A DNA stretch of 64,000 nt. It comes from Candidatus Marinacidobacterales bacterium (GTDB lineage: Bacteria; Acidobacteriota; Vicinamibacteria; Marinacidobacterales; DATDRI01). Of this stretch, positions 8,397-33,986 are shown piece by piece; positions within the stretch are counted from its first letter, which is position 1, and every line of letters starts with the position of its first letter. The notes under the pieces were generated by a model. It was not told the origin of the DNA and did not search any database. It saw only the letters and a list, made by a program, of their open reading frames with translations. The position numbers and the translations under genes are program-made. The stretch lies in contig OZ245365.1 in NCBI GenBank assembly GCA_965226495.1, positions 2,752,001-2,816,000 of the forward strand. The letters run 5' to 3'.

Positions 8397-8446
8397 ATTG
8401 CCTGCCGCATTAGCATATGGCCTTATTGGGGGTCAGATCCGGCGTC

Positions 8447-9922: not shown

Positions 9923-9965
9923 TACCCTCCCTGCATTGGGATCGACGGTTGTTTTCCTCTTGTCC

Positions 9966-9997
9966 AAAAAAAAACCTCTTCAGGAAACCTGAAGAGG
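9966..9997 (-). terminator. Intrinsic terminator in the operon leader (attenuator)
   Basis: Minus strand CCTCTTCAGG-TTT-CCTGAAGAGG-T9, 44 nt before the first gene. Confidence 0.88.
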
Positions 9998-10071
9998 AAA
10001 ACACCGTCCGGCATCTTACATCCCCAGGCTCCCTATGCTGTGGCTAGCGTCGCCGCCGGCCAGGTGCCCAG

Positions 10072-10230
10072 CTAGGCCCCGTAATGGTACCGATGGTACG
10101 TAAGATGCCCGAAATTACCGTGTTGCCCCGTGTTCGATGCCAGGCATGACACGGCCACGCAAATACGAGCCCCGAGACACGGGGACGCCTCCAACCGCAA
10201 CATCAATAGGATCGTCACTCGTAGGCTCAT
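10072..10230 (-). CDS. Putative attenuator leader peptide, 52 aa, His/Tyr-rich C-terminus
   Basis: MSLRVTILLMLRLEASPCLGARICVAVSCLASNTGQHGNFGHLTYHRYHYGA*, located between promoter and terminator. Confidence 0.65.
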   Translation of the reverse strand: MSLRVTILLMLRLEASPCLGARICVAVSCLASNTGQHGNFGHLTYHRYHYGA

Positions 10231-10249
10231 GCTTACCCTTGCGCCTCAA

Positions 10250-10278
10250 ACGCTACACCCCCCACTTTTTCATGTCAA
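10250..10278 (-). promoter_or_regulatory. Sigma70-type promoter for the leader/his-aro operon
   Basis: TTGACA-17 nt-TAGCGT. Confidence 0.6.
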
Positions 10279-10303
10279 GTGACATCCGACCGAAGAGTTT
10301 TTT

Positions 10304-10319
10304 TGTGATTTTGATCACT
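10304..10319. promoter_or_regulatory. Crp/Fnr-like (or Rex-like) box
   Basis: TGTGA-TTTTGA-TCACT upstream of a cNMP-binding protein gene. Confidence 0.4.
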
Positions 10320-10398
10320 TCTTTTCTTGTATCGTCACCCATCGGATGCTATATAAAAAAGGTTCTCGATTTTATCGTGGACCGAATCGAGGCGCGCC

Positions 10399-10926
10399 GT
10401 GAATATAAAACGGATCTTGAGATCCGTCGTTTTCTTCGAATACGTCACCGAGCACCATGTCCAACAACTGGTGGACCTGGCGCGGTCGCAAACCGTGGAA
10501 ACCGGAGAGGTTGTCTTCTCCGAAGGTGAGGCAGAGAACCACCTCTACCTGATCGAGAGCGGCCGTATTCAGATCTCTCGGGAGGGGCCTCACTTCGGCC
10601 GCCAAGCCTTCGCGCTCCTCGGCCCGGGCGATCACTTCGGCGCGTTGTCGCTCTTTTACGCTGATCCCCACTTCGCGTCGGCCACCGCCGTCGAGACGAC
10701 GCGCCTTTGGATGATCCGCCACGACGACTTCCAGGCTTGCCTGCAGAAACAACCGAAACTAGCCTTCGCGGTTCTCAAGGGAATGGTGCTCGGCATCCGC
10801 ACCGCGAACGGCGAGATCCGAAAGCTGACGACACTTTTCGATCAACGATCTCGCTCGGAGATCGAGCTACCCGCAAAAAAAGATTCAACTCGCCCATCGC
10901 GGCCGCTCGCTCCACCGGCAACTTGA
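10399..10926 (+). CDS. Cyclic-nucleotide-binding domain protein (Crp/Fnr-like)
   Basis: GEVVFSEGE, LYLIESGRI, LGPGDHFGALSL, ASATA. Confidence 0.85.
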   Translation: MNIKRILRSVVFFEYVTEHHVQQLVDLARSQTVETGEVVFSEGEAENHLYLIESGRIQISREGPHFGRQAFALLGPGDHFGALSLFYADPHFASATAVETTRLWMIRHDDFQACLQKQPKLAFAVLKGMVLGIRTANGEIRKLTTLFDQRSRSEIELPAKKDSTRPSRPLAPPAT

Positions 10927-11009
10927 TCCGCCGGGACGGCCGGCTTCAGAGCCGGCATCAGAGTAATACAGACGCCGGAAGGCCTTGATTCGCCTCCGCT
11001 TAAAGGATC

Positions 11010-11034
11010 CCGTCAAAAGGGAGGCTTTTGACGG
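11010..11034. terminator. Intergenic hairpin, possible terminator
   Basis: CCGTCAAAAG-GGAGG-CTTTTGACGG; no clear T tail. Confidence 0.35.
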
Positions 11035-11127
11035 TACCCTCCCTTTGAACTATCATTGAGGTTGGTGATTCATTCACCCTCAAATTCTTCCGTGTTGCCG
11101 ACGCGGACTCTCGAGGTTCACTTAGGA

Positions 11128-13014
11128 ATGCCCATATCCGAAAGTCGGGCGGTAAAGAAGCTTCTGCCGGTCATTCTGTGGCTTTTCAGCGTTTCCGTCC
11201 TTCCCACGCTCGCCTCCGCCTCTCAAGGTGTCGAGATCATATCGGTCGATGCGGTCGAGCCCGGAATGGTGGGTGAAGGTCACACCGTCTTTTCCGCCGA
11301 GAAGATCGAAACGTTCAAAGTCACGATCATGGGCGTGCTACGAAACTATGGCCCCAACCAGAACATGATCTTGGCCAAGCTGGAAGGCGGTCCGCTCGCC
11401 GACACTGGCGTGATTGCCGGAATGAGCGGCAGCCCGGTCTACATCGACGGGAAATTACTCGGAGCGGTGGCCTACTCCTTCCCGTTCTCCAAAGAACCCA
11501 TCGCGGGAATCACCCCCATCGAAGAGATGATCGATGGAACCGCCACACCCATTTCACGACGTAAGGTGGCGAAGCTCGACTTTCCACTCACACCCGAGCG
11601 ACTGGAAGCCGTCGCCCCCCAACGGGTGCGGCCGGTAGCCATCCAGGGTGCGTCGCTCAGCGGAGCCGACCAACTCCGGCCCTATCTGGGAAAACTCCTT
11701 TCTCCCATTGCCACGCCCGCGTCACTCAACGGCTTTCTCCCGGAGACTTACGACATTGCCGCTCCGTTGCTGCGGGCGCTGGGGATGGAACCCCTGCTCG
11801 GTGGCGCGATGGTCCCAAGACTCCAGTCCGGCACCGAGATCGCGGAGATCACAACGCCTAACTCAGAGCTCACGTTGCGGCCGGGTGACGCGGTCGGAGT
11901 AGGACTCATTACGGGAGACATGGACTTGAGCGCCACTGGCACCGTGACCCATGTCGATCCCCTGACCGGAAGCGTCTACGCATTCGGCCATCCTCTTTTC
12001 AACCTCGGCCCCATCGAATACCCGATGACGAGAGCCAACGTGCATTTGGTCCTACCGAGCGTTTACAGCTCCTTCAAGTTATCGAGCTCCGGACCTACCG
12101 TGGGGACCTGGCTGCAGGATCGACACACGGCTATCAAGGGAAAACTGCGTAGCCGGCCAAAGATGATTCCCCTGTCCGTCCAGGTGAAGACCAGTCGAGA
12201 CCTGGAGAAATCCTACAATCTCGAGATCGTCAACGATGAGCTTTTCTCACCGGTGCTGGCATACGTGGCGCTGATGTCCATTCTCCAGTCCACCGAAAGA
12301 CAGTTCGGAACCGCGACCTTCAAGGTCTCGTCCTGGATCTCCTTGGCGGGCGAGCGACGCGTCCACATCGAGGACATCTTCGCGGACCAGCAACCGGCGC
12401 TGTCTGCATCCGCCATGGCGGCAGCCCCCCTATCTTTCCTCATGACCAACGACTTCGAGAAGGTCAAGGTGGAATCGATGAAAGTCTCGATCGAGGCCAC
12501 CGAGAGTCCACAAACCGCACGCTTGGTTCGGGCGTGGCTGGACACCGATCGCGTCGCCCCCGGCGGCACCGTCCCATTGAAGCTTCTACTGCGTTCCTAC
12601 CGCGGTGAGGATATTCTGAAGACGGTCAATGTGGACATTCCGGCCAACGTCGCGGAAGGTAAACTCAAGCTCCTGGTGGCCGATGCAACCACCATGTCGG
12701 CTTTGGAACGTCGCGAATCACACGATCGCTTCGAGCCGCGCAATCTAGATCAGCTCATTCGAGCACTCAACGCGCTGCGCAAAAACAACCGCCTGTACGT
12801 GAAGTTGACCAGCCCCGGTTACGGGGCCATCGTCGCGGGAGAGTATCTCTCTTCCCTTCCCCCCAGCGTGATGGACGTCCTGAAAGCAGATCGCTCAAGC
12901 GCAAGCTATATTCCTATCAATAGCGCGACCCTATGGGAGCACGAGCTGGTGACCGATTACAGCCTCAGCGGCGCGCGCGTTCTCGAGATCACGGTGGGCA
13001 ACTTCCTAAACTAG
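11128..13014 (+). CDS. SpoIVB/peptidase S55 domain protein
   Basis: GVIAGMSGSPVYIDGKLLGAVAY, AFGHP; signal peptide; start uncertain. Confidence 0.88.
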   Translation: MPISESRAVKKLLPVILWLFSVSVLPTLASASQGVEIISVDAVEPGMVGEGHTVFSAEKIETFKVTIMGVLRNYGPNQNMILAKLEGGPLADTGVIAGMSGSPVYIDGKLLGAVAYSFPFSKEPIAGITPIEEMIDGTATPISRRKVAKLDFPLTPERLEAVAPQRVRPVAIQGASLSGADQLRPYLGKLLSPIATPASLNGFLPETYDIAAPLLRALGMEPLLGGAMVPRLQSGTEIAEITTPNSELTLRPGDAVGVGLITGDMDLSATGTVTHVDPLTGSVYAFGHPLFNLGPIEYPMTRANVHLVLPSVYSSFKLSSSGPTVGTWLQDRHTAIKGKLRSRPKMIPLSVQVKTSRDLEKSYNLEIVNDELFSPVLAYVALMSILQSTERQFGTATFKVSSWISLAGERRVHIEDIFADQQPALSASAMAAAPLSFLMTNDFEKVKVESMKVSIEATESPQTARLVRAWLDTDRVAPGGTVPLKLLLRSYRGEDILKTVNVDIPANVAEGKLKLLVADATTMSALERRESHDRFEPRNLDQLIRALNALRKNNRLYVKLTSPGYGAIVAGEYLSSLPPSVMDVLKADRSSASYIPINSATLWEHELVTDYSLSGARVLEITVGNFLN

Positions 13015-21937: not shown

Positions 21938-22603
21938 TTAGTCGGTCTTAGTCGGCAGGGGGAGCGACACGACATCCCCGGGATGTTCCAGCCAATAGTC
22001 CGGTTCGTAAAGCTCCAGGACGTGCCTCTCGATCGGTCCCCAAAGTGCCGCCGCGGTGGAAACACCTGCGGCTCTGCCGGCAGCCATATCGTGGGCCGAG
22101 TCACCAATAAACAACGTCTCCGAGGGCGCTGCACCCAGTTGCTCGATGGCGTGAAGGACGGGTGACGGATCAGGCTTGGGGCGCTCCACGTCATCGGCTC
22201 CCACCAAGACCGGGAACAGGTCACTGAAGCCACATACCCTTAGGCCCCGTTGGGCGCCGGATCTCATCTTGCTAGTAACGACCCCCAGCTTCACGCCCCA
22301 GGAGCTCAAGGTCCTAACCGCTTCGATGGCTCCGGGAAATACCGTCACCATGTCATCGTGATACTGGTTGTTGTACTCGCGGTAGGTCACGATCATCGCC
22401 TCGACCACCTCCGGGTCGTCGGAGAACTCGCTGAGTTGCTTGCGGAGCGGCGTCCCCATGCCCGCAAGCCACAGCTCGTCCGGTGACACCTTGCCGAGAT
22501 GCGTCTTAACCGTGTGGCGGTACGACTGAAGAATCAACTCCACCGAATCGATGAGCGTTCCATCGAGGTCGAAGAGATAAGCCTTGAAGGGCGGGTTAGC
22601 CAC
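21938..22603 (-). CDS. HAD-family hydrolase (PpaX/phosphoglycolate phosphatase-like)
   Basis: FDLDGTLIDS, VVTSK, KPDP, IGDSAHD; GTG overlaps pheT stop. Confidence 0.9.
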   Translation of the reverse strand: MANPPFKAYLFDLDGTLIDSVELILQSYRHTVKTHLGKVSPDELWLAGMGTPLRKQLSEFSDDPEVVEAMIVTYREYNNQYHDDMVTVFPGAIEAVRTLSSWGVKLGVVTSKMRSGAQRGLRVCGFSDLFPVLVGADDVERPKPDPSPVLHAIEQLGAAPSETLFIGDSAHDMAAGRAAGVSTAAALWGPIERHVLELYEPDYWLEHPGDVVSLPLPTKTD

Positions 22604-25001
22604 GAAGCTCGGCACCCAGGTCCTTTTGGAGAAGCCCGAGGATTCGGCCACGAGCCTTTGCCACATCCTTCTCCGTCAAGGTCCGGTCGCGGGCTTGGTA
22701 GGAGACCGAAAAGGCCAGGGACTTCTTCCCTTCCGAAACCTGTTCCCCCGCGTACTCATCGAACAGCTCGACCGAGGAGACGAGAGGGTGGCCCCGGATG
22801 ACATCGCGCACCCGCGACGCAGGTAGCTCCGCATCGACGACCACCGCCAGATCCTCCACTACGGGCGGGAACCGCGGTATAGGCTGGTAATGCGGGACCG
22901 GCGTCACTAGCGGCAATAGATCATCGAGCGCGACCTCGAAAAGGTAGACGTCCCGTTCCACACCAAAGTAAGCGGCAGTGGTGGGGTGAACCTGTCCGAG
23001 ATAGCCGACCTCCTTCTCTTCTGCACGCATCCGGCTGGCTCGGCCCGGAATCATCCCGTACTCCTCGACCGCCTCATACTCAACGGAAACCCCCAGACGG
23101 TCGAACAATCGCTCCACGCTCGCCTTCGCTTCAAAGAAGCCAATACCCTCTTCGGTCGCCCGGCCCCAACGATCCACACGCCGACCCGTTATCGCGCCCA
23201 CTAAATGCTCGACCTCGTTCGGCAGCTTCTCTTTGCTGGGAAGGTAGACCCTAGACGTCTCGAAGACGCCGAAAACCTCGTTTTGCACGCGCTGATTAGA
23301 TGCCACCGTGCTGAGCACGGAGCCACGGAGGCTGGTCCGCAACCGTTCTTGGCCCACGTTGAGCGGATTCAGGACGGCCAGGGGCTCCTCGCGAGCAAAT
23401 CGCTCCGGAGGGACAACCCGCTCCAGAGCCTCGCGACTCGTCAAGGGGTAGGTCACGATTTCTTGCATTCCGGCACTCGCGAGCACGTCGCGCACCCTCT
23501 CTCGTAACTCGCGCCTCGGCTGGGGTACGCGGGGAGGCACGCGCCCGGCGAGCGGTTCGATAGGAATCTGCTCGTAGCCAACGATTCGCGCCACTTCCTC
23601 CGCCACGTCGTCAGGGATACGAACATCCCGTCGCCAGTACGGTGGCTCCACTTCCCAACCGTCCGGCTTTGATGTGACCTCGAACCCAAGCAAACCGAGC
23701 GTGCTCTCAACCTGGTCGTCGGGAACATCAATACCGAGGACTTGAGCTAACCGCTGACGCTTTACCACGATGCGAGTCTTCGTCGGCTTGCCAGGGTACG
23801 CATCGACAACTCCCGCGGCGGCCTTACCACCGCCGAGCTCGACCAGCAGCTTGGTCGCGCGCTGAGAAGCAAGGAGCGCCAGCTCGGTGGGGAGACCCCA
23901 GGCGAACCTCCTCGACGCCTCACTCGGTACCTTGAGAGCCAGAGCGGTTCGTCGGATGCTGAGCTGGTTGAACGTCGCGACCTCCAAAAGGATGGTCTTG
24001 GTTTTCTCGGTGACTTCCGTGTCCAAGCCACCCATTACCCCCGCCACCGCGACCGGCCCCTTGGGATCGGTAATGAGCAAGTGCTCGGGTCCCAAAGTGT
24101 GGGCGACGCCGTCCAGCGTGGTCAGCTTCTCTCCTTTTCGTGCCCGACGAACAATGATGGTGTGCTCGGCCAAGGTGTCATAGTCGAAAGCGTGGATCGG
24201 CTGACCTGTCTCGAGCATCACGTAGTTCGTAATGTCCACGACGTTGTTGATCGGGCGCATCCCCGCAGCGGTCAATCGTCCCTGCATCCAAGGTGGAGAA
24301 GGACCGATCTTGACCTCTTCGATTACGGTCGCCGTGTACCGTGGGCACAGGTCGGCGTCGGCGTCCTCAATGACGACCTTCGCGAGTTTGTCGACTGGCC
24401 CGCCTTCGGCCTGGTAGGTCAGATCGGGCTCCCGCACCGTCTCTCCGGTCAAAGCGGCGACGTCCCGCGCCACTCCAAGCACCGAGAGACCGTCCGCCCG
24501 GTTGGGCTTCATATCGATCTCGAGCACCGTCTCCCCGTAGTAGTCCGCGAACGGCGTTCCGAGCGGCGCATCGTCTGAAAGAACCAGTATTCCCTCGTGC
24601 TCCTCCGAAAGACCCAACTCCCTCTCGGAGCACACCATGCCCGCCGATTCCACCCCACGAATTTTCGCCGCCTTCAGCTTCATTGGCTTGCCAGTGTGCC
24701 CATCGGCGAGCTGGGCGCCAAGCGTTGCGAAAGCGATCTTTTGGCCCGCCGCCACGTTCGGCGCTCCACAGACGACGGTATGCTGCTCGTCCCCGAGCGT
24801 GACCGTCGCGAGGCGCAGGCGATCCGCGTTTGGATGCGGAGCTACCTCAAGCACTTCCCCGACGAAGACGTTTTCCCAAGACTCACCGATCTGTTCGATC
24901 GACGTTACCTCGAGTCCGGCCATCGTCAGACGGTGGGCGAGGTCTTTCGGTGGCAAACGTAGAGTGACGTAGTCACTCAGCCACTTCAAAGGTACGCGCA
25001 T
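22596..25001 (-). CDS. pheT: Phenylalanine--tRNA ligase beta subunit
   Basis: HPNADRL, VVCGAPN, PNRAD, RPINNVVDITNYVM, C-terminal KKSLAF...RTLT. Confidence 0.98.
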   Translation of the reverse strand: MRVPLKWLSDYVTLRLPPKDLAHRLTMAGLEVTSIEQIGESWENVFVGEVLEVAPHPNADRLRLATVTLGDEQHTVVCGAPNVAAGQKIAFATLGAQLADGHTGKPMKLKAAKIRGVESAGMVCSERELGLSEEHEGILVLSDDAPLGTPFADYYGETVLEIDMKPNRADGLSVLGVARDVAALTGETVREPDLTYQAEGGPVDKLAKVVIEDADADLCPRYTATVIEEVKIGPSPPWMQGRLTAAGMRPINNVVDITNYVMLETGQPIHAFDYDTLAEHTIIVRRARKGEKLTTLDGVAHTLGPEHLLITDPKGPVAVAGVMGGLDTEVTEKTKTILLEVATFNQLSIRRTALALKVPSEASRRFAWGLPTELALLASQRATKLLVELGGGKAAAGVVDAYPGKPTKTRIVVKRQRLAQVLGIDVPDDQVESTLGLLGFEVTSKPDGWEVEPPYWRRDVRIPDDVAEEVARIVGYEQIPIEPLAGRVPPRVPQPRRELRERVRDVLASAGMQEIVTYPLTSREALERVVPPERFAREEPLAVLNPLNVGQERLRTSLRGSVLSTVASNQRVQNEVFGVFETSRVYLPSKEKLPNEVEHLVGAITGRRVDRWGRATEEGIGFFEAKASVERLFDRLGVSVEYEAVEEYGMIPGRASRMRAEEKEVGYLGQVHPTTAAYFGVERDVYLFEVALDDLLPLVTPVPHYQPIPRFPPVVEDLAVVVDAELPASRVRDVIRGHPLVSSVELFDEYAGEQVSEGKKSLAFSVSYQARDRTLTEKDVAKARGRILGLLQKDLGAELRG

Positions 25002-25006
25002 GGGGA

Positions 25007-26050
25007 TTAGAACTGCCTCAGAAAACGCAGGTCGTTGCTGTAGAAGTGACGAATGTCATCGACCCCATAGCGAAGCATCGCGATCCGCTCCACACCGAGG
25101 CCGGCCGCGAAACCGGTGTAGATGTCGGCGTCGTAGCCCATTTTCGTCAAGATCTCGGGATGCACCATCCCCGCACCCAGAATTTCGATCCAACCCTCGT
25201 TCTTACAGATGCGACAGCCCTTGCCCCCACACAAGAAGCAATCGATGGCCATATCGACGCCGGGCTCGACGAACGGGAAGTAATCGCATCGGAACCGAAT
25301 CTTTCGTTCCTGTCCGAACAGGCGCTTGGCAAACTCGAAAAGCGTTCCTTTCAGATGTGCCAAGGTGATGCCCGTGTCCACGGCCAACACCTCGACCTGC
25401 GTGATCATCCACTCGTGCGTCGGGTCGGTCGCCTCGTTCCGATACGTCTTGCCGGGTACCACAATACGGATCGGCGGCTGGTTCTTCTCCATGAAGCGCA
25501 CCTGGTTTGGCGACGTGTGGGTGCGAAGCAGGAGTTTCGCATCCGAACCATCGGCGCGATCGATGTAAAACGTGTCCATTAACTCACGGGCCGGATGTTC
25601 CTTGGGAATACGCAAGGCCTCGAAGTTGTAGTAGTCGAGCTCTACCTCCGGTCCTTCGACCACTGAAAAACCCTGAGACTCGAAGGCATTGAGAATGTCC
25701 CGCAGAGTTTGCGTGATGGGGTGAAGCCGCCCATAAGGGAGCGGGTAGCCCGGGAGGCTCACATCGACCCCTCCAGTCTCTACTGTTTTCTCGATGCGCG
25801 CCGTCTGGAGGGCGGCACGTCGCTCGGACAACGCCTCGTCGAGCTCCTTCTTGAGACGGTTGGCTGCTTCCCCAGCAGTACGTCTCTCATCCGACGGCAA
25901 CTCGCCCAACGAGCGCAGGAACGCTGTGAGTGTCGCCTTGCGCCCGAGGTGAGCAATACGCCAAGACTCGAGCGAGGACTCGTCCGACGCAGCGGCCAAA
26001 TCGCGGCGCGCATCATCGGCGATTTCTTGTATGTTCTTGCTATCCGTCAT
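25007..26050 (-). CDS. pheS: Phenylalanine--tRNA ligase alpha subunit
   Basis: HPIT, HPARELMDTF, LLRTHTS, YFPFVEPG, GAGMVHP, GVERIAM. Confidence 0.98.
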   Translation of the reverse strand: MTDSKNIQEIADDARRDLAAASDESSLESWRIAHLGRKATLTAFLRSLGELPSDERRTAGEAANRLKKELDEALSERRAALQTARIEKTVETGGVDVSLPGYPLPYGRLHPITQTLRDILNAFESQGFSVVEGPEVELDYYNFEALRIPKEHPARELMDTFYIDRADGSDAKLLLRTHTSPNQVRFMEKNQPPIRIVVPGKTYRNEATDPTHEWMITQVEVLAVDTGITLAHLKGTLFEFAKRLFGQERKIRFRCDYFPFVEPGVDMAIDCFLCGGKGCRICKNEGWIEILGAGMVHPEILTKMGYDADIYTGFAAGLGVERIAMLRYGVDDIRHFYSNDLRFLRQF

Positions 26051-26399
26051 AACCGAAAACGAAACACGGCCGGGCTCCCGCCTTTCCGGCCCCGGCCGCT
26101 CAGAAAAGTGCGTAGCAATTATATAGCCGCCTGGCCAGGTTTCGTACTAGCACTTACCTAGTTTGACGGCCAACAGGGTCCAGCAGCCAGAACCGCTAGA
26201 TCCTGCATTGCCATCTGAACCCCACAGGGCGCGGCGAGGCCCAGATGGCCAGAGGGTCGCATTCGGGGGCAAAAAAAGATCGAAAAATACTTGACAGATT
26301 CTCCGGAGCAATTTCGAAGTGTGACTAGTCACTAACGTAAACACCTGCCGGAAACGCACCCACGCTTTCTCGCATCCTCTCTCCAAGATTGAGACGTTT

Positions 26400-27470
26400 T
26401 CTTGATCCAATCCGTTTAACCCCGTCTGGTGGCGGCAGAGGCGTCAGAAAAACCCGTTGCTATCTATCGCTGAGATGTCGAGAAGAAAGGGCCATCTCGA
26501 GTGTGGCTACAAGAATCTCTTCGACTACTGCGTGAGGCGACTCCACTTGAGTGAAGGCTCGGTCGCCTTGCGGATCCAGGTCGCCAATGTGTCGAGGCGT
26601 TTTCCCCAGCTCCTCATTGCGTTGGCAGAAAACCGATTGAGTCTCACAGTGGCCGGTCTCTTGGCGCCCGTTCTCACGGAGAGCAACGTCGAGAGGCTCC
26701 TCGTGGATTGCGTCGGTATGACCAAGCGCGAGGCCGAGGAGTGCCTCGTCGCACTCCAGCCGAAGCCGGTCTTTGCCCCCTCGATTCGCAAATTGCCGTC
26801 TCCGGCCTCCCAGCGCCAGGCCACGTCACCCTCTCCGGCTCCGCTGCCGCAGGAGACACGCTCAACTCCGCGAGTGTCGCTGAGCATCCTCCAGCCGGCG
26901 AGGCCGGAGCTCTTCAATTTTCGTTTCGCTGCCGATCGGAAATTCAAAGACAAATTCGAGCGGCTCGCAGAAGTCCTCGATGTCCAGAACCCTCAACATC
27001 ACATGGCCGAGATCATGGAGCAAGCCTTGGACGTTGCTCTGGATAAGAAGGACGTGCAGAGGAAGCGTGCACGCCGACTACAGAGGGTGTCGAAAGGTAA
27101 CAAGAAATCTCGTCCAGACAAGGTTTTCGCGAAGTCTCGCTACATCCCGTCAGAGGTCCGAGAGCGCGTCCAAGAGCGGGCTGGATACCAGTGCCAATAC
27201 CGAGCTCCCGATGGAACCCGGTGTCGGTCAAGAACGGGACTTCAGGTTGAGCACCTGCGACCCTTTGCTTTGCATCGCAGCCACGACGAGAAGTATCTGC
27301 GGCTCTACTGCGACCCTCACAATCGTTTGAGCGCCGAGCGGGTCTACGGTGCCGCATTCATCCGGGGGAAGGTCGATGCCTCCCGGCGCAGACACTCCGA
27401 GCGGCAGAGTGGCAGCAAAACGCCTGAAGCTCAATCCGAGGATGGGGTACCACCCGGACCTCAGGCGTGA
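26400..27470 (+). pseudogene. HNH endonuclease with helical (DUF222-like) N-terminus, 5' end frameshifted
   Basis: ORF 26457-27470 has C..C..EH...C..HN; upstream bases encode RLVAAE/RQK out of frame; homologous to 30822-31910. Confidence 0.7.
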
Positions 27471-27666
27471 CAGGCCGGGGAAGGCGTTCAAGCCGAGAAA
27501 TCAACCAGTTAGGCTCTCGGGTTTATGCTCCTTTGGTACCCGTTAGGACCGCTTCACTGCACAATTACCGCACAGAGCGAAGACCCTAGGCCTTTCCCTT
27601 GGACAGTTTGGCTTTGCCCGAATAGAATGTCCTCCTTGGCTGGTGGTGACTCCCGAAAGCCAGACG

Positions 27667-30315
27667 ATGCCCCTACAATCTGGAACCAAGCTTGGGCCAT
27701 ATGAGATTGTTGCGCCCATCGGCGCGGGTGGAATGGGTGAAGTCTACAAAGCCAAGGACACTCGCCTTGATCGCACCGTCGCCATCAAGGTTCTTCCTTC
27801 TCACCTTTCCGATAACGCCCGGCTCAAAGAACGCTTCGAGCGCGAGGCGCGGGCTGTCTCCAGCTTGAATCATCCTCACATCTGCACGCTCTACGACATC
27901 GGCAGCGAGAACGGCGTGGACTTCATGGTGATGGAGCACATCGAAGGCGAGACACTGGCTGACCGTTTGAAGAAAGGTGCATTGCCTCTCGACCAAGCGC
28001 TTCGCCATGCCATCGAGATCGCCGACGCTCTGGACAAGGCCCACCGGCAAGGTGTGGTGCATCGGGATCTGAAGCCCGGCAACATCATGCTCACCAAGTC
28101 GGGAGCGAAGCTATTGGACTTCGGGCTGGCGAAGATGGCCGGAACTGGCGCTGGCGCGAGTGACTCAGCTCTGCCGACCGAAGCGAAGTCGCTCACCGCG
28201 GAAGGCTCCATCCTGGGCACGTTTCAATACATGGCCCCCGAGCAACTCGAAGGGAAAGAAGCTGACGCTCGGACGGACATCTTCGCCTTTGGTGCCGTGC
28301 TGTACGAGATGGTGACAGGGCGAAAGGCGTTCGAGGGCAAGAGCCAGGCGAGCTTGATTAGCGCCATCATGAAAGACGAGCCGCAGCCGATTTCCCAACT
28401 TCAGTCCATGTCGCCTCCGGCTCTGGACCATGTCGTCAAGACGTGCCTCGCCAAAGAAGCGGACAAGCGCTGGCAGAGTGCTGGTGATCTGGAGCGTGAG
28501 TTGAACTGGATCGCCGAGGTCGGTTCAGAGTCGGGCATGTCCATGCCGGTGGGGGCAAGGCCGAGAAGCCGTGACCTCGCCTGGGGGCTGTCGCTGTTGC
28601 TCGCGGTGATCGTCACTGGCGTCGCGGTTTGGCAAGTGACGCGTCCCGCGGAAACGCCACGACCCGTCGTACGGTCTTCGCTTCCGTTGCCCTCGGGCGT
28701 CACGCTGACGGGTTGGGTTCGTCACGCCGTGGCTCTCTCTTCGGACGGCACCCGCCTCGTGTACAATGCCAACCAGCAGCTCTACTTCCGTGCCATGGAC
28801 CAAACGGAGGCGACTCCCATCCGGGGCACCGAGAATGCTCTAAGTCCCTTCTTCTCTCCCGACGGTGAGTGGGTAGGATTCTGGGCAGAGGGCCAGCTCA
28901 AGAAGGTCGCCATCAGCGGTGGCGCATCCGTGCGCCTATGTGACGCTGGAGGTATGGGGGGCGCGGGCGTTCCGCGCCCTCGGTGGGGAGCCGACGACAC
29001 CATTGTTTTCGGGCAACGTGGGGCTGGCATCATGCAGGTGTCCGCCGGTGGAGGCACGCCCGAGGTTCTCATCCCGCTGGACACAACGGAAGAGGTCGGC
29101 CATGGCCCGCAGGTCTTGCCGGGCGAAAAAGCCGTGCTCTTTACCCTCGAGGACGGTTCGAGATGGGACGACGCCCAGATCGTGGTGCATTCTCTCGAGA
29201 CCGGTGAGAGAAAGGTTCTGATCGAAAGCGGCAAAGACGCCCGCTACGTACCCACGGGGCACCTCGTCTACGTCTTGGATGGAACGCTTTTGGCCGTGCC
29301 GTTTGATGTGGACAAGCTCGAGGTGACGGGCGGTCCCATACCCATGGCCGAGGGCGTCATAACCGCTGGGCCTGCCGCACAGTTCAGCGTTTCGGACACC
29401 GGTGCCTTGGTCTATGTGACCGGCAGTGCTCTAGCGGTCCGCACGCTTGTCTGGGTGGATCGGGACGGAAGAGAAGAGGCACTGGCAGCCGAGCCGCGTG
29501 CCTATGTGTATCCACGTATCTCTCCGGATGGGGGCCGTCTCGCCGTCTTTCTGGCCGCCCCGGATGACGACATCTGGATTTGGGACTTCGCCCACGAGAC
29601 ACTGACCCCGCTCACGTTCGGCTCGGACCTCAACCCAGTTTGGACGCCGGACGGGAGACAGGTGGCGTTCGCCTCTCGCCGTGACGGAACAGCGAACCTT
29701 TACTTGAAAGCGGCCGACGGCACGGGCGCGGTCGAGCGACTGACCGAAAGCGAGAACCCGCAATTTCCATACGCCTTCACCCCGGACGGGAGGCAGTTGG
29801 TGTTTCTCGAAATAGATGAGCCAAACTTAGACCTCGTAGTGCTTTCCCTCGAGGGCTCTCCGGAGCCCCTTCTGGCGACTGAGTTCTCAGAACGGAACGG
29901 GGAGATCTCTCCCGACGGCCTGTGGCTGGCCTACGAGTCGAACGCCTCGGGCCAATACGAGATCTACGTGCGGCCGTTCCCGAACGTCGAGGATGGACAG
30001 TGGCTGATCTCGAGGGGCGGTGGTGCGCGGCCTCTGTGGGCTCCGGACGGCCGCGAGTTGTTCTATCTGACTCCCGGCAGAAGACTGATGGCGGTCGGTG
30101 TTCAGACCGAGCCTAGCTTCGCTCCCGGTGCCGCCGAGGAGGTCTTCGGGGGGTACTACGCGGGAGCCGCATTCGGACGCACCTACGACATCTCCCCCGA
30201 TGGCGAGCGCTTCCTGATGATCAAGGAAAGCGGGAGCGACGAGACTTCCTCGACGGAGTTCATCCTCGTCCTCAATTGGTTCGAGGAATTGAAGCGGCTC
30301 GTCCCAACCAACTAA
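27667..30315 (+). CDS. Ser/Thr protein kinase with TM and TolB-like beta-propeller
   Basis: IGAGGMGEVY, VAIK, HRDLKPGN, DFG, YMAPE; SPDG/WTPDG repeats. Confidence 0.95.
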   Translation: MPLQSGTKLGPYEIVAPIGAGGMGEVYKAKDTRLDRTVAIKVLPSHLSDNARLKERFEREARAVSSLNHPHICTLYDIGSENGVDFMVMEHIEGETLADRLKKGALPLDQALRHAIEIADALDKAHRQGVVHRDLKPGNIMLTKSGAKLLDFGLAKMAGTGAGASDSALPTEAKSLTAEGSILGTFQYMAPEQLEGKEADARTDIFAFGAVLYEMVTGRKAFEGKSQASLISAIMKDEPQPISQLQSMSPPALDHVVKTCLAKEADKRWQSAGDLERELNWIAEVGSESGMSMPVGARPRSRDLAWGLSLLLAVIVTGVAVWQVTRPAETPRPVVRSSLPLPSGVTLTGWVRHAVALSSDGTRLVYNANQQLYFRAMDQTEATPIRGTENALSPFFSPDGEWVGFWAEGQLKKVAISGGASVRLCDAGGMGGAGVPRPRWGADDTIVFGQRGAGIMQVSAGGGTPEVLIPLDTTEEVGHGPQVLPGEKAVLFTLEDGSRWDDAQIVVHSLETGERKVLIESGKDARYVPTGHLVYVLDGTLLAVPFDVDKLEVTGGPIPMAEGVITAGPAAQFSVSDTGALVYVTGSALAVRTLVWVDRDGREEALAAEPRAYVYPRISPDGGRLAVFLAAPDDDIWIWDFAHETLTPLTFGSDLNPVWTPDGRQVAFASRRDGTANLYLKAADGTGAVERLTESENPQFPYAFTPDGRQLVFLEIDEPNLDLVVLSLEGSPEPLLATEFSERNGEISPDGLWLAYESNASGQYEIYVRPFPNVEDGQWLISRGGGARPLWAPDGRELFYLTPGRRLMAVGVQTEPSFAPGAAEEVFGGYYAGAAFGRTYDISPDGERFLMIKESGSDETSSTEFILVLNWFEELKRLVPTN

Positions 30316-30430
30316 GGACACGAACCCACCGGTTGGACCACCGGCCTAACGCACCAAAGCGGAATCACTAGTCGGGTGTATGACAGTCGATTAGAGCGGC
30401 TTGTGCATTTCCTGTACGAGTAGTCGCCAG

Positions 30431-30506
30431 GGGAGCTCGCCCAGCGAGCGTAAGAATGCCGTGAGGGGTGCCTTGCGCCCCGAGGTGGGCAATGCGCCAG
30501 GACTCG
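30431..30506 (-). pseudogene. Relic of pheS 5' region
   Basis: Aligns to 25896-25970 with 13 mismatches and 1 extra base; reads ESWRIAHLG/RKAPLTAFLRSLGELP. Confidence 0.88.
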
Positions 30507-30821
30507 CGGCGACGGTCGGTACTGGCGTCTGGCGCGCTTGGTGATTGGCACCGTCCTCGATTGATAGCGGACGCTTCGGACAAAGCGCACCGTAAATGTC
30601 TCTCCGCGAAAAAAAACTACGTTTTCTCTTGACAAGATCCCACAGCAAGGTTTTGAAAGTTTCCTAATGTTTTCGTAGTACTATCTCTAAAGCGTACGTT
30701 GGCGCCCTAGTCAACACCAAGAACCTTCGAGACAAAAACTTCATCGAAGCACATTCCTCCCGACTCGCGTCATCTCAAGGCCCAAAAAAGTGCGTTGTTA
30801 TATTAGTCGTGAGGAGGACTA

Positions 30822-31910
30822 GTGATGTTTAACAAGTTATTGAAATCGATTTCGGATGATGAGCTACTTCGCCGCTTGTCTGGGCTGGTAGAAAAATCGC
30901 GACGCGTCGAATCCGAGCTGGTCGCGCATGTTGCCGAAGTGGACGAGCGGCGTCTCTATGCACGGGAAGCTTGCTCCTCCATGTTTACTTATTGCACCGA
31001 GGTGTTACACATGTCGGAGGCCGAAGCGTATCTCCGGATTCGAGTCGCGCGCGCTTCGCGAAAACATCCCGAGCTTCTGAGGATGCTTCAAGACGGGCGT
31101 ATTCATTTGACCGGTGCGGCCAAGCTTTCGCCACACCTCACCGAGGCGAATCGGGACGCGGTTTTGCCGCGCGCGGCGCACAAGTCCAAGGCAAAGATCG
31201 AGGAGCTGGTGGCCGAGGTCGCGCCGAAGCCTGATGTTGCGCCCAAGATACGCAAGCTTCCCGCCCCCGCCCAACTGCGTCCGGACACAGTTGTGTTACC
31301 AAAGGCCACAGTGCCAAGGCCAGTAGAACCTCTGGCCCCTGAGCGTTACAAAGTCCAGTTCACGGCCAGCGCGGAGCTCAAAGACAAGATCGAGCGTCTG
31401 CGCGCACTCATGCCCGACAGAGATCTAGCTGTCATCATTGACGAAGCGGTGACGGAGAAGCTGGGGAGGTTAGAGTCGAGGCGCTACGGTAAGACGCGGG
31501 CGCCGAGACGGGATCTCAAAGACACCGACACATCGCCGTCGTCACGCTACATCCCCGCCCCGGTGAGGCGTGCCGTGAGCGAGCGGGACGGAAATCAATG
31601 CACTTTTGTGGACGGGCACGGTAGGCGTTGTCGGGAGCGCTCCCAACTGCAGTTTCACCATAAAGACCCCTTCGCCCGAGGGGGGGACCACAGCGTCGTC
31701 AACATCCAAATGATGTGTCCCATGCACAACCAGTACTTAGCGGAGTGCGACTACGGGAAGGGGGTGATGGACCGATACCGCCGCTCAGGCAGCCTCGCAC
31801 ACGAGCCAGGACCCGTCTACTCGTACTCTGGAGGCTCTGCTAATTCCGGCCGCTCGATTCCTTATCAACCATTATCCTCATCGCACGACATGATCTGGCG
31901 AAGCATGTGA
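30822..31910 (+). CDS. HNH endonuclease with helical (DUF222-like) N-terminus
   Basis: GAGGAGG RBS; SRYIPAPVRRAV.ERDG.QC...C...FHH..PFARGG...N...C..HN. Confidence 0.9.
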   Translation: MMFNKLLKSISDDELLRRLSGLVEKSRRVESELVAHVAEVDERRLYAREACSSMFTYCTEVLHMSEAEAYLRIRVARASRKHPELLRMLQDGRIHLTGAAKLSPHLTEANRDAVLPRAAHKSKAKIEELVAEVAPKPDVAPKIRKLPAPAQLRPDTVVLPKATVPRPVEPLAPERYKVQFTASAELKDKIERLRALMPDRDLAVIIDEAVTEKLGRLESRRYGKTRAPRRDLKDTDTSPSSRYIPAPVRRAVSERDGNQCTFVDGHGRRCRERSQLQFHHKDPFARGGDHSVVNIQMMCPMHNQYLAECDYGKGVMDRYRRSGSLAHEPGPVYSYSGGSANSGRSIPYQPLSSSHDMIWRSM

Positions 31911-32060
31911 GCCCGGCAATGTTTCTGAATGGCGGGGCCAGCGGCCAATTTGCTAGTCGTCGAGACCCCCGTTGCTGGAACCGTGAGCTGGTGCATTGCG
32001 ACGGCGGACTAGTCCCTGTACGATCGTGGCCAGATCTGCAGCAAGTAAGGAGCCAATCAA

Positions 32061-33077
32061 ATGCAGCTAGGAATGATCGGTCTTGGGAGGATGGGCGCCG
32101 GAATGGTCCGGCGCCTTATGAAGGATGGCCACGACTGCGTCGTCTATGACATCCACCCGGAAGCGGTGAAACAACTGGCCGCCGACGGCGCGAAGGGCGC
32201 GCTTTCGATGGAGGAGTTCGTCCAAAAGCTCGACAAGCCTCGTGCCGCTTGGATGATGGTACCGGCAGCGGTGGTGGACCAAACGATCGAATCCCTGGTT
32301 CCACATTTGGAAAAGGACGACATCGTTATCGATGGTGGGAATTCCTACTACCACGACGATATTCGCAGAGCCGCAGCGCTCAAGACAAAAGCCCTTCATT
32401 ACGTCGACGTCGGAACCAGTGGCGGGGTCTGGGGTTTCGAGCGTGGCTTTTGCCAGATGATCGGCGGTGAAAAGGACGTTGTCGAACACCTCGACCCGAT
32501 ATTCGCTTCCCTCTCACCTCCCATCGAGGCGGCACCACGGACCCCCGGTCGTCAAAAATTGGGCGGAACCGCCGAGCACGGCTATTTGCACTGTGGCCCC
32601 AGTGGAGCCGGCCACTTCGTCAAGATGGTTCACAACGGCATCGAGTACGGCGTCATGGCCGCGTACGCCGAAGGATTCAACATCCTCAAGAACGCCAACA
32701 TCGGGAAGGAGGAAAGAACCGTGGATGCCGAAACCACGCCGCTCCGGCACCCGGAACACTACCAGTACGATCTCAACCTGACCGACATCTCCGAGCTGTG
32801 GCGTCGTGGAAGTGTGATCACGTCCTGGCTGCTGGATCTCACCGCGAACGCGCTACTCGAAAACCCCGACCTGTCGAACTTCGCAGGCCGGGTCTCGGAT
32901 TCAGGCGAGGGGCGTTGGACGATCCAGGCCGCCGTCGATGAGGCGGTCCCCGCCCATGTCCTCACGGCATCGCTCTACGAGCGCTTCGGCTCGCGCGGAA
33001 AGGACGACTTCGCGAACAAAGTGCTTTCTGCCATGCGCTATGGGTTCGGTGGTCACCACGAGAAGAAAGCGGACTAG
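32061..33077 (+). CDS. gnd: Decarboxylating 6-phosphogluconate dehydrogenase (short type)
   Basis: [42 protein letters not shown]. Confidence 0.96.
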
Positions 33078-33296: not shown

Positions 33297-33986
33297 ATGG
33301 TGATCGAGATCCTCCAGGATGCCGACGCAGTCGCGAAACGGGCCGCAAGCCTCATTGCCGCCGCGGCCCGTCAATGCGTTGGCGAGCGAGACCGTTTCGT
33401 TTTCGCGGTCAGCGGGGGGCGGACACCGTGGAAGATGCTCCGGGCACTCGCCGGCGAAGACGTTCCTTGGGAGCACGTCCGTGTCGTACAAGTTGATGAA
33501 CGCGTCGCACCGGAGGGACACTCCGATCGCAATCTGACCCATTTGCGGGAGAGTCTTCTCCCCCACGCTCCCCTATTGCCGGATCACATCTACCCCATGC
33601 CGGTTGGCGAAGCCGACTTGACCACGGCGGCCTCTAGCTACGCCCAGGTTCTCGCAGACCTGGCCGGTTCACCCCCGGTGGTGGACTTGATCCATCTCGG
33701 TCTCGGACCCGATGGTCACACGGCCTCCTTGGTACCTGGAGACCCGGCACTCGAGGTTCATGACCGAGAGGTTGCGGTGACGGAGGTTTACCAAGGCCGG
33801 CGGCGCATGACGCTCACTTACCCGGCGCTCAACCGAGCTCGACAATTGCTTTGGCTCGTGACCGGAGCGAACAAAGCGGACATGCTTCCTCGCTTGCGCG
33901 ATGGTGACGAAGGGATTCCGGCCGGTCACGTGGCGAGCAAGAACGCGATGGTGGTCGCCGATCGATCGGCAGCCGACCGGCTCTAG
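33297..33986 (+). CDS. pgl: 6-phosphogluconolactonase
   Basis: SGGRTP, VDERV, LGLGPDGHTASL, RMTLT. Confidence 0.94.
   Translation: MVIEILQDADAVAKRAASLIAAAARQCVGERDRFVFAVSGGRTPWKMLRALAGEDVPWEHVRVVQVDERVAPEGHSDRNLTHLRESLLPHAPLLPDHIYPMPVGEADLTTAASSYAQVLADLAGSPPVVDLIHLGLGPDGHTASLVPGDPALEVHDREVAVTEVYQGRRRMTLTYPALNRARQLLWLVTGANKADMLPRLRDGDEGIPAGHVASKNAMVVADRSAADRL

What the first reader, a model, noticed from the sequence alone, without database searches (positions are those of the whole stretch)
25896..31910. HNH nucleases paired with pheS and a synonymously recoded pheS relic: possible pheS-targeting homing/integration system
Seen: the arrangement [pheS 5' end (-), spacer, HNH gene (+)] occurs twice, with a kinase gene between. 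The second pheS piece (30431-30506) has 13 substitutions and one inserted base over ~76 nt but only one amino-acid change (T to P), so it diverged while still under selection as PheS. No integrase is visible. Known: free-standing homing endonucleases convert conserved genes to resistant alleles, and integrating elements often restore their target with a diverged copy. Inference: an HNH-associated element replaced the pheS 5' end and displaced the old allele, carrying the kinase as cargo, or this site is a recurrent HNH landing pad.
Basis: partly seen in the sequence, partly recalled or inferred. Interest (0 to 1): 0.75.

Follow-up and report, generated by a model that had tools for sequence, protein, structure and literature searches.

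The report
pheS scrap in HNH/kinase cassette hotspot
A 76-base leftover of a foreign but once-working pheS gene sits among copies of a many-copy HNH nuclease gene and a kinase gene in a spacer that varies between sister species, so it looks like a recombination scar and not a system aimed at pheS.

Summary
Window 30430-30505 is a second copy of pheS codons 28-52. It has 14 substitutions, one extra G and one amino-acid change against the resident gene. All 7 changes unique to the relic are synonymous, so it comes from a different, functional pheS allele. Contigs from four studies rule out misassembly.

The pheS-targeting reading is not supported.
- The two HNH genes (35% identical) belong to a dispersed family of 38 loci in this genome. 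The family is multi-copy in 24 of 41 genomes sampled from the order. It has a distant DUF222-like N-terminus and a C-terminal HNH domain.
- Only this locus touches pheS.
- HNH copies are enriched next to PD40 Ser/Thr-kinase paralogs.
- HNH1 is dead: it lost its ribosome site, start codon and about 37 codons, and the motif Asn is Tyr.
- The relic is an internal scrap. It abuts the kinase cassette's 3' flank and is separated from HNH2 by about 100 unique bases.
- Resident pheS shows no phylogenetic breakpoint.

The pheS-gnd spacer is empty in one congener, holds HNH plus kinase in another, and holds insertion sequences in a family member.

Best reading (0.55): two spacer haplotypes were joined by one homologous and one illegitimate crossover. 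Interest is modest.

The parts
22596..25001 (-). pheT
   Evidence: 801-aa ORF. It is 90-92% identical to the pheT of G001 and G002 by tblastn.
25007..26050 (-). Resident pheS, intact and the only full copy in the genome
   Evidence: Pfam tRNA-synt_2d matches profile positions 2-246 of 246, and Phe_tRNA-synt_N also matches. There is 1 match in G000. No identity breakpoint is seen against the congeners.
25895..25969 (-). Resident pheS codons 28-52, the counterpart of the relic
26051..26215 (.). pheS upstream region shared with G002 (92.7% identity); shared with G001 only as far as about 26153
26269..27470 (+). HNH1 cassette, an inactivated copy. It has an A-run and a CTTGACA box at 26290-26296, and a leader running to 26463. 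A deletion of about 160 nt at 26464/26466 removed the ribosome site, the ATG and about 37 codons. The ORF remnant is 26457-27470.
   Evidence: Alignment with four intact paralogs. DNA similarity to about 15 HNH1-type copies spans 26466-27388. The invariant Asn of the family (N294 in alignment A2) is Tyr here, read from the sequences.
27407..30428 (+). Kinase cassette. Upstream region 27407-27640; Ser/Thr kinase with PD40 propeller ORF 27643-30315; conserved 3' flank 30316 to about 30428.
   Evidence: Pfam Pkinase and PD40 matches. Both flanks are shared with paralogs at genome 2411852-2414730 and 1349443-1352482. The 3' flank motif has 3 copies in the genome.
30430..30505 (-). pheS relic: codons 28-52 of a different allele, with one inserted G
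   Evidence: It is closest to G002 pheS: 89% over 79 nt, with similarity possibly reaching 30514.
30506..30608 (.). Unique filler ('X') between the relic and HNH2; origin unknown
   Evidence: No significant similarity to the pheS N-terminus or upstream region of 4 genomes (z -0.9 to 2.7). No other match in the genome or in the fetched loci.
30609..31824 (+). HNH2 cassette as conserved among its paralogs. A-run 30609-30616, CTTGACA box 30628-30634, about 190-nt leader with the palindrome GTTGGC-N6-GTCAAC (GTTGAC in 8 of 11 copies aligned), then the ORF.
   Evidence: Alignment of 12 copies. DNA similarity to 11 or more copies spans 30595/30623-31822. Leader alignment.
30825..31910 (+). HNH2 ORF, 361 aa and intact. 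It has a helical N-terminal domain, a proline-rich linker and a C-terminal HNH domain. The last ~29 codons lie outside the repeated unit.
   Evidence: PHROGs 'HNH endonuclease' families match at E 6e-6.
31952..32060 (.). gnd upstream region shared with G002 (94% identity); shared with G001 only from 32046
32061..33077 (+). 6-phosphogluconate dehydrogenase-like gene (gnd), followed by pgl at 33297-33986
   Evidence: Synteny with G001, G002 and G003 is shown.

Best explanation
The spacer between the divergent pheST and gnd-pgl operons is a permissive, fast-changing site that collects selfish and paralogous gene cassettes. In this genome it holds a dead copy (HNH1) and an intact copy (HNH2) of a 38-locus dispersed gene family. 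Family members have a distant DUF222-like N-terminus and a C-terminal HNH nuclease domain. The spacer also holds one member of a family of about 90 Ser/Thr kinases with PD40 propellers.

The 76-nt pheS piece is a non-functional scar. Two different versions (haplotypes) of this spacer, from related lineages, were joined in tandem. One crossover was homologous, in the conserved flank. The other was an illegitimate join, between the end of the kinase cassette's 3' flank and pheS codon 52. That left one intact pheS and a stranded scrap of the other lineage's pheS. Later deletion or replacement trimmed the scrap to codons 28-52.

Shown: the structure, the foreign and functional origin of the scrap, the multi-copy nature of the HNH family, and the variability of the site.

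Inferred: the joining mechanism (of the homology-facilitated illegitimate recombination type), its direction (which allele is native), and any role of an HNH nuclease in making the break.
For: 1. Foreign, functional origin. All 7 relic-unique substitutions are synonymous, including two double-step Leu codon changes. The relic has 0 amino-acid differences from G001 PheS. Random substitution gives so few amino-acid changes in no more than 1.4e-4 of 100,000 trials.
2. Junctions. Similarity of the kinase 3' flank to its two paralogs runs to about 30428, and the relic begins at 30430.
3. Order and orientation. The relic stands to HNH2 as pheS stands to the HNH2-type gene in G002. In a tree of 19 copies, the G002 copy falls in the same 4-member clade as the window's HNH2 (support 94/97; the order inside the clade is unresolved).
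4. Variable site. It is empty in G001, holds HNH2-type plus kinase in G002, and holds 7.4 kb with four transposase genes in G003. G000 and G002 share the flanks up to 26215 and from 31952 at 93-94% identity.
5. The HNH family is not tied to pheS. There are 38 loci. The family matches in 24 of 41 genomes sampled from the order. More than 3000 homolog clusters exist in public data.
6. Cassettes come and go. Of 22 HNH loci of G001 and G002 compared with G000, 3 sites are occupied there and empty here (L083, L096, L108). Two sites hold a different HNH subfamily in the two species (L110, L086). At least 4 sites are shared.
7. A Ku gene is present, so end-joining is plausible.
8. A second gene-fragment duplicate flanks a truncated HNH elsewhere in the genome.
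9. Homology-facilitated illegitimate recombination is described as one homologous and one illegitimate end (abstract of PMC3240628, listed).
Against: - The model predicts that the stranded pheS piece ran on into codons 27-1 and its own upstream region. Instead, about 100 nt of unmatched DNA follow it, so a second event must be assumed.
- No donor allele was found. Two scans of genome contigs and two of metagenome contigs for relic-specific codon patterns gave 0 hits.
- With 75 nt, the relic's nearest allele (9, 12 and 14 differences to G002, G001 and resident) is not statistically resolved.
- No microhomology at the junction could be established.
- The window's HNH2 pairs with paralog c3820 (93/94), not with the G002 pheS-adjacent copy. 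A shared ancestry of the pheS-HNH2 adjacency is therefore not shown.
Confidence: 0.55

Rival explanations
1. HNH-driven cassette homing. The HNH genes act as free-standing homing endonuclease genes. A nuclease cut in or near the spacer was repaired by copying a cassette-bearing donor haplotype. Flanking DNA, including a stretch of donor or recipient pheS, was dragged along or displaced as a co-conversion footprint.
For: - Cassettes show presence/absence differences between congeners, and different subfamilies occupy the same site.
- HNH2 is intact and keeps the residues that are invariant in the family (H280, N294, H302, N303 and Cys260/270/299).
- 35 of 38 loci share one architecture: A-run, CTTGACA box and a ~200-nt leader.
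- 20 of 35 lie right after a co-oriented open frame, against 19.5% of random positions.
- 5 of 38 abut the stop codon of a kinase gene.
- Free-standing HNH homing endonucleases that mobilise flanking DNA are known in phage T4 (abstract of PMC2790892, listed).
Against: - No recognition site is known.
- Resident pheS has no co-conversion tract.
- The relic touches the kinase flank, not an HNH border.
- At the one precisely resolved empty site, 22 nt are replaced by 2262 nt with no shared target sequence.
- The family is absent from the phage and plasmid collections.
Confidence: 0.2
2. End-joining filler. A double-strand break in the spacer was sealed by Ku-dependent end joining. Short pieces of exogenous DNA were captured in the process: a 76-nt piece of a relative's pheS and an unrelated piece of about 100 nt.
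For: - Both ends of the relic are abrupt.
- The neighbouring ~100 nt match nothing.
- A Ku gene is present.
Against: - The relic's orientation and side relative to HNH2 copy the pheS-HNH2 arrangement of G002. Under this model that would be a coincidence, with a chance of about 1 in 4.
- From recall, capture of foreign fragments by bacterial end joining is poorly documented. I made no literature search for it.
Confidence: 0.1
3. One reading: an HNH-associated element that specifically targets or integrates at the pheS 5' end, brings a replacement 5' end, and carries the kinase as cargo.
For: - The direct repeat of pheS codons 28-52 brackets HNH1 and the kinase.
- pheS stays intact.
- G002 also has an HNH gene upstream of pheS.
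Against: - Only 1 of 38 HNH loci regions lies next to pheS.
- HNH1 is dead.
- No integrase was found.
- No breakpoint is seen in pheS.
- The left repeat lies 300 nt from the cassette's left end.
- G003 has insertion sequences at the same spot, so the site itself, not pheS, attracts insertions.
Confidence: 0.05
4. An old tandem duplication inside this genome, followed by neutral decay of the extra pheS piece.
For: - It is a direct repeat 4.5 kb apart on the same strand.
- Another HNH locus shows a local tandem duplication (near genome 4998187).
Against: - Neutral decay would give mostly non-synonymous changes, yet all 7 relic-unique changes are synonymous.
- The relic is nearer to G002 (9 differences) than to the resident copy (14 differences).
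Confidence: 0.05
5. Assembly artefact.
For: The region is rich in repeats.
Against: Independent contigs from 4 runs of 4 studies span the kinase end, relic, filler and HNH2 start with 0-1 differences. Contigs from 2 runs span pheS through HNH1 with 0 differences.
Confidence: 0.01

Closest known systems
REP13E12 / DUF222-HNH repeated elements of Mycobacterium tuberculosis. They are named as repetitive elements in a passage of PMC10589994, which cites Gordon et al. 1999; I did not read that paper.
   Same: - Dispersed, multi-copy chromosomal genes of about 1.1-1.3 kb.
- They encode a helical N-terminal domain and a C-terminal HNH domain.
- No transposase, no terminal repeats, and no known way of moving.
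   Different: - The DUF222 match is only sub-threshold here (E 1.8e-4 to 0.09, 14 matches; 13 of them lie in the N-termini of 13 of the 38 HNH loci).
- The host is an acidobacterium. One homolog is labelled Vicinamibacteria.
- All copies carry a conserved A-run, CTTGACA box and leader.
- Copies are enriched beside PD40 kinase genes.
Free-standing HNH homing endonuclease genes of T4-like phages, such as mobE (abstract of PMC2790892)
   Same: - A stand-alone HNH gene between host genes.
- Spread would drag flanking DNA along.
- Such genes could leave allele mosaics.
   Different: - These copies lie in a bacterial chromosome, not a phage, and number in the dozens.
- No target site and no co-conversion tract were found.
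- No similarity to phage records was found.
Homology-facilitated illegitimate recombination (abstract of PMC3240628) and the stacking of displaced gene remnants at Vibrio type VI effector loci (PMC5361080; title and start of abstract only). Both are listed.
   Same: - One homologous and one illegitimate join add foreign DNA.
- A displaced remnant of the resident or incoming allele is left beside the intact gene.
   Different: - Here it is inferred from one structure only.
- The donor is unknown.
- A further deletion must be assumed.
Integrating elements that restore the end of their target gene (phages and islands in tRNA or protein genes). This is established knowledge, recalled; no call was made.
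   Same: A diverged direct repeat of a gene segment brackets inserted DNA, and the gene stays intact.
   Different: - No integrase.
- The repeat is an internal gene piece.
- The left copy is 300 nt from the insert.
- The displaced piece does not continue into native upstream DNA.

Membership tests
Homing endonuclease gene targeting pheS | The nuclease gene is consistently found beside the target gene across copies and genomes | tested here: not met
   38 HNH loci were found in G000. The pheS fragment occurs only at this locus. G001 has 13-18 matches to the family but none at pheS.
Homing endonuclease gene targeting pheS | A co-conversion tract or phylogenetic breakpoint in the flanking target gene | tested here: not met
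   Identity of resident pheS to G002 is 0.91, 0.885 and 0.907 for codons 1-26, codons 27-52 and the rest of the gene. The three congeners are about equally distant throughout.
Homing endonuclease gene targeting pheS | The nuclease cleaves the element-free allele and spares the element-bearing allele | not testable with these tools
   This needs purified protein and DNA substrates.
DUF222-HNH (REP13E12-type) repeated element | N-terminal DUF222 domain (PF02720) | tested here: inconclusive
   No Pfam hit for the two window proteins even at E 10. 2 of 14 family members hit at E 0.0046 or weaker. A six-frame search gave 14 sub-threshold matches; 13 of them lie in the N-termini of HNH loci, all at profile positions 4-139. 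One unrelated true DUF222 gene scores 80 bits.
DUF222-HNH (REP13E12-type) repeated element | C-terminal HNH nuclease domain | tested here: met
   Pfam HNH matches 13 of 14 members, best E 1.3e-6. HNH2 itself scores 21.1 bits against a cut-off of 21.4. PHROGs HNH families match at E 6e-6 and 1.8e-7. The best fold matches are HNH nucleases, but weak (McrA, E 0.034).
DUF222-HNH (REP13E12-type) repeated element | Dispersed multi-copy repeat in the chromosome | tested here: met
   38 loci in three subfamilies.
Integrative element restoring its target | An integrase or recombinase gene in the insert | tested here: not met
   No such Pfam family was found in the insert genes or in 15 further ORFs of at least 220 aa between 11 and 47 kb.
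Integrative element restoring its target | The displaced target fragment continues into the native flank | tested here: not met
   The DNA beyond codon 28 of the relic matches no pheS N-terminus or upstream region.
Insertion sequence / transposon | Transposase, terminal inverted repeats and a target-site duplication | tested here: not met
   No transposase family was found. No terminal inverted repeat is among the 25 pairs listed. No duplication is seen at the resolved empty/occupied pair L096.

The most novel reading that the evidence does not exclude
The DUF222-like HNH cassettes are active free-standing homing-endonuclease genes of a bacterial chromosome. They spread between species and among paralogous sites, notably the conserved 3' ends of PD40 kinase genes, and swap cassettes at fixed sites. 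They may also help to seed the expansion of the kinase family. On this reading, the pheS scrap is a footprint of one such break-and-copy event.
Probability: 0.12. Interest if true: 0.7.

Novelty: new member of a known kind. Interest (0 to 1): 0.3.

Why it matters
As it stands, the finding is a clean natural example of recombination between lineages. The event left a datable scar: a stranded piece of a housekeeping gene that still shows the synonymous-only divergence of its working past. The scar marks a spacer that turns over quickly between sister species.

The wider point is the HNH family. It has dozens of copies per genome in two of the three families sampled in the order, a fixed promoter-leader-ORF layout, and no known way of moving. 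It is a distant relative of the mycobacterial REP13E12 genes, whose function and way of moving are, to my knowledge (recalled, not searched), still unknown. If its nuclease could be shown to cut empty sites, that question would become testable in a non-pathogen.

Tried and rejected
- **Donor allele.** An exact 29-mer of the relic and a codon-degenerate version were searched in genome contigs. Two codon-degenerate patterns were searched in metagenome contigs.
- **Origin of the ~100-nt filler.** Local alignment to the pheS 5' regions of G000-G003 gave z -0.9 to 2.7; the best hit was not collinear. Short-word BLAST against the genome and all fetched loci found nothing.
- **Known RNA families.** Rfam found none in 25800-32200 at E up to 1.
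- **Structured leader RNA.** The consensus fold of 11 HNH2-type leaders has 33 pairs, of which only 3 have a compensatory change, and a covariation term of -0.79 kcal/mol. This is not evidence for an RNA. The palindromes look more like DNA sites.
- **Promoter and terminator scan.** Nothing exceeded the shuffled controls.
- **Solved structures.** The profile search of PDB sequences gave 0 hits. Foldseek gave no hit at E 0.001 or better. The model has mean pLDDT 71.8 and pTM 0.37.
- **Defence systems.** PADLOC gave no hit for either HNH type. The kinase hits PD-T4-6 models only through its kinase domain.
- **Plasmids and phages.** tblastn found no match.
- **Literature.** A search for HNH endonuclease, Acidobacteria, protein kinase and paralogs found 27 papers; I saw the 15 listed, and none of those concerns this family (listing only). 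Five papers hold both DUF222 and HNH (listing only). Supplementary files were not opened.

Full report
**What is at the site.** The region reads, left to right on the + strand:
- pheT, 22596-25001, minus strand.
- pheS, 25007-26050, minus strand.
- A 165-nt pheS upstream region.
- An HNH gene (HNH1), ORF remnant 26457-27470, plus strand.
- A Ser/Thr kinase with PD40 propeller repeats, 27643-30315, plus strand.
- A 76-nt piece of pheS on the minus strand, 30430-30505.
- About 100 nt of unique DNA.
- A second HNH gene (HNH2), 30825-31910, plus strand.
- gnd and pgl, plus strand.

**The repeat is real.** It matches at 80% over 50 nt and 89% over 28 nt, with the register shifted by one base. In a search of the whole 6.34-Mb genome it has E 4.8e-13, and the next best hit has E 0.009. 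Beyond these 76 nt the two 'pheS-spacer-HNH' units share nothing. The two HNH proteins are only 35% identical.

**Not a misassembly.** Short-read contigs from four runs of four different studies cover the kinase end, the relic, the unique DNA and the start of HNH2. They span 30240/30243 to 31060/31190 with 0-1 differences. Contigs from two of the runs cover pheS through HNH1 (25500-27063) with 0 differences.

**The relic comes from a different, working pheS.** I aligned codons 28-52 of the relic with the resident gene, two congeners (G001, G002) and a family member (G003).
- The relic differs from the resident copy by 14 substitutions and one inserted G, with one amino-acid change.
- That change is at codon 40, which is T, P, A or G in the four genomes.
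- The relic's protein sequence is identical to that of G001.
- Seven substitutions are unique to the relic, and all are synonymous. They include two Leu codons changed at two positions each.
- When the same numbers of transitions and transversions are placed at random, so few amino-acid changes arise in 1.4e-4 of trials (from the inferred ancestor), 3.4e-4 (from G002), or none of 100,000 (from the resident allele or G001).

The piece therefore evolved under selection as PheS in a fourth lineage, roughly as distant as the congeners are from each other. It was stranded recently. It is nearest to G002 (9 differences, against 12 to G001 and 14 to the resident copy). With only 75 nt that ranking is not secure.

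**The relic is an internal scrap, and pheS itself shows no seam.** Upstream of codon 28 the relic runs into DNA that matches no pheS N-terminus or upstream region (z -0.9 to 2.7 against shuffles; the best hit is not collinear). That DNA matches nothing else in the genome or in the fetched loci. On the other side, the relic starts one or two bases after the end of the kinase gene's conserved 3' flank, which is shared with two paralogs. Resident pheS is about equally similar to G001 and G002 along its whole length. Identity to G002 is 0.91, 0.885 and 0.907 for codons 1-26, codons 27-52 and the rest. The three congeners are about equidistant in pheT as well. There is no sign that the resident 5' end was imported, and none that it was not. 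Which allele is native stays open.

**The HNH genes are members of a large dispersed family.**
- HNH2 finds 53 matches in the genome. These merge into 38 loci in three subfamilies.
- DNA similarity among HNH2-type copies runs from about 30595/30623 to 31822. Among HNH1-type copies it runs from 26269 to about 27390.
- 35 of the 38 loci share one layout: an A-run, a CTTGACA box 195-320 nt upstream of the first aligned residue, a conserved leader with short palindromes, then the ORF. The three loci without the box are truncated copies.
- The last ~29 codons of HNH2 lie outside the repeated unit.
- The protein has a well-predicted helical N-terminal domain, a disordered proline-rich linker and an HNH domain (model mean pLDDT 71.8).
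- Pfam HNH matches 13 of 14 aligned members.
- DUF222 matches only below threshold, but always at the N-terminus. The family is thus a distant relative of the DUF222-HNH genes known as REP13E12 repeats in M. tuberculosis (passage of PMC10589994).
- The family has more than 3000 homolog clusters in public data. Many sit on contigs of 1.3-2 kb, as repeats do, and one is labelled Vicinamibacteria.
- In 41 genomes sampled from the order it is found in 24: 7 of 7 in the window's family, 16 of 17 in a second family, and 0 of 16 in a third family with small genomes. Genomes have up to 45 matches.
- The family has no match in the plasmid or phage collections.

**HNH1 is dead.** Compared with four intact paralogs, it has a clean deletion of about 160 nt. 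The deletion removes the ribosome-binding site, the start codon and about 37 codons. The Asn that is invariant in the family alignment (N294) is Tyr in HNH1, as read from the sequences. HNH2 is intact and keeps all invariant residues.

**The association is with kinase genes, not pheS.** The genome has 92 kinase-domain loci.
- Eight of 38 HNH loci are followed within 1.5 kb by a kinase start on the same strand.
- Six of 38 are preceded by a kinase end.
- Random placement gives means of 0.44 and 0.18, and never more than 3 in 1000 trials.
- At five loci the cassette's A-run begins within about 15 nt of the stop codon of a kinase ending in NWFEELKRLVP.
- More generally, 20 of 35 cassettes lie just after a co-oriented open frame of at least 100 codons, against 19.5% of 3000 random positions.

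Most loci are still not next to a kinase. Kinase genes cluster, so the uniform random model overstates the enrichment.

**The spacer is a hotspot.**
- In congener G001, pheS and gnd are 249 nt apart with nothing between them.
- G002 has an HNH2-type gene, then a kinase, then the same kinase 3' flank. In that assembly the HNH gene is split into 2 pieces and the kinase into 3, either by decay or by indel errors.
- In G003 the gap holds 7.4 kb with two IS256-type transposases, one IS66-type, one IS3-type and a DruA-like gene.
- G000 and G002 share the flanks up to 26215 and from 31952 at 93-94% identity. That is higher than in the coding regions. G001 differs there. The two occupied spacers therefore seem to descend from one occupied haplotype.
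- In a tree of 19 HNH2-type copies, the window's HNH2 and the G002 pheS-adjacent copy fall in one 4-member clade (94/97). The window copy pairs with paralog c3820 (93/94). One G002 locus gave no DNA hit and was left out. Truncated copies were not included.

**Cassettes come and go elsewhere too.** I compared the flanks of 22 HNH loci of G001 and G002 with G000.
- Three are occupied there and empty here (L083, L096, L108).
- Two sites hold different HNH subfamilies in the two species (L110 against c3820; L086 against c1127).
- At least four are shared.
- The rest were ambiguous.
- I checked three in detail. At L096, 22 nt of the empty site are replaced by 2262 nt, with no target duplication.
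- A survey of the 6-kb flanks of all 38 loci found direct repeats that are not HNH or kinase sequence at five loci. Only two look like stranded gene fragments: the pheS relic, and a 253-nt copy of the 3' end of another gene (86.6% identical) beside a truncated HNH at genome 3795212/3800783.

Gene scraps are therefore occasional by-products, not a regular feature.

**How it most likely arose.** The relic sits on the same side of HNH2 and in the same orientation as pheS does in G002. On its other side, the left block (pheS, upstream region, HNH, kinase, 3' flank) has the same layout as the whole G002 spacer. The simplest account is that two haplotypes of this spacer from related lineages were joined in tandem. 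One crossover was in a conserved flank. One illegitimate join linked the end of the kinase flank to pheS codon 52. This is the pattern described for homology-facilitated illegitimate recombination (abstract of PMC3240628). A later deletion or replacement must be assumed to explain why codons 27-1 are missing.

A Ku gene is present, so plain end joining with captured filler is a variant I cannot exclude. An HNH nuclease may have made the break. Free-standing HNH homing endonucleases that move flanking DNA are known in phage T4 (abstract of PMC2790892). Nothing here shows it.

**Verdict.** The proposed pheS-targeting system is not supported. The finding is a recombination scar in a cassette hotspot. 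It is a member of known kinds of event, with a moderately interesting, poorly understood HNH gene family as its setting.

Noticed in passing
window 30628-30824 and 26290-26463; genome-wide at 35 of 38 HNH loci: Every intact HNH cassette starts with an A-run and a CTTGACA box, followed by a conserved ~200-nt leader. HNH2-type leaders hold the palindrome GTTGAC-N6-GTCAAC and the hairpin-like sequence CTTCGAGAC...GTCGAAG. HNH1-type leaders hold GTGAC-TA-GTCAC. Covariation support for an RNA is weak, so these may be protein-binding sites.
   Followed up: partly
genome C1:3795212-3795464 and 3800783-3801035 (outside the window): A second stranded gene fragment. It is a 253-nt direct repeat (86.6% identical) of the 3' end of a 376-codon ORF, with 10 of 84 amino acids changed. 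It brackets 5.3 kb that include a truncated HNH copy.
   Followed up: partly
window 27643-30315; genome-wide: The genome has 92 kinase-domain loci. They include tandem arrays, such as five kinase-domain matches between genome 4514798 and 4529058. The kinase domain matches PADLOC PD-T4-6 models (E 1.9e-95) at domain level only.
   Followed up: partly
window 30316-30428: The conserved 3' flank of the kinase gene contains the motif ACCACCGGCCTAACGCACCAAAGCG. It is shared by only three kinase paralogs in this genome and by the kinase in the pheS-gnd spacer of G002.
   Followed up: partly
genome C1:5194338-5195162 (outside the window): The one gene that passes the DUF222 threshold (80 bits) lies between matches to a kinase C-terminal end (5195788-5195915) and a kinase domain (5192490-5192908). 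This is another pairing of a DUF222-type gene with kinase genes.
   Followed up: no
L071 (G003) 3972-11413: In this family member the same pheS-gnd spacer holds two IS256-type, one IS66-type and one IS3-type transposase genes, and a DruA-like (Druantia) gene.
   Followed up: partly
window 30370 and 31969 (joint in run X13): One public run contains a contig that joins 30370 to 31969 through 20 other letters. This is the arrangement of congener G002, so a G002-like relative co-occurs with this organism's sequence in that sample.
   Followed up: no
window 21938-22666 and 22596-25001: The HAD-hydrolase ORF and the 3' end of pheT overlap by 71 nt on the same strand. The HAD start codon is probably further downstream than the first ATG listed.
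   Followed up: no
window 30316-30505, + strand: Read-through from the kinase gene would give an RNA that is antisense, at 83% complementarity, to codons 28-52 of pheS mRNA. There is no evidence that this matters.
   Followed up: no
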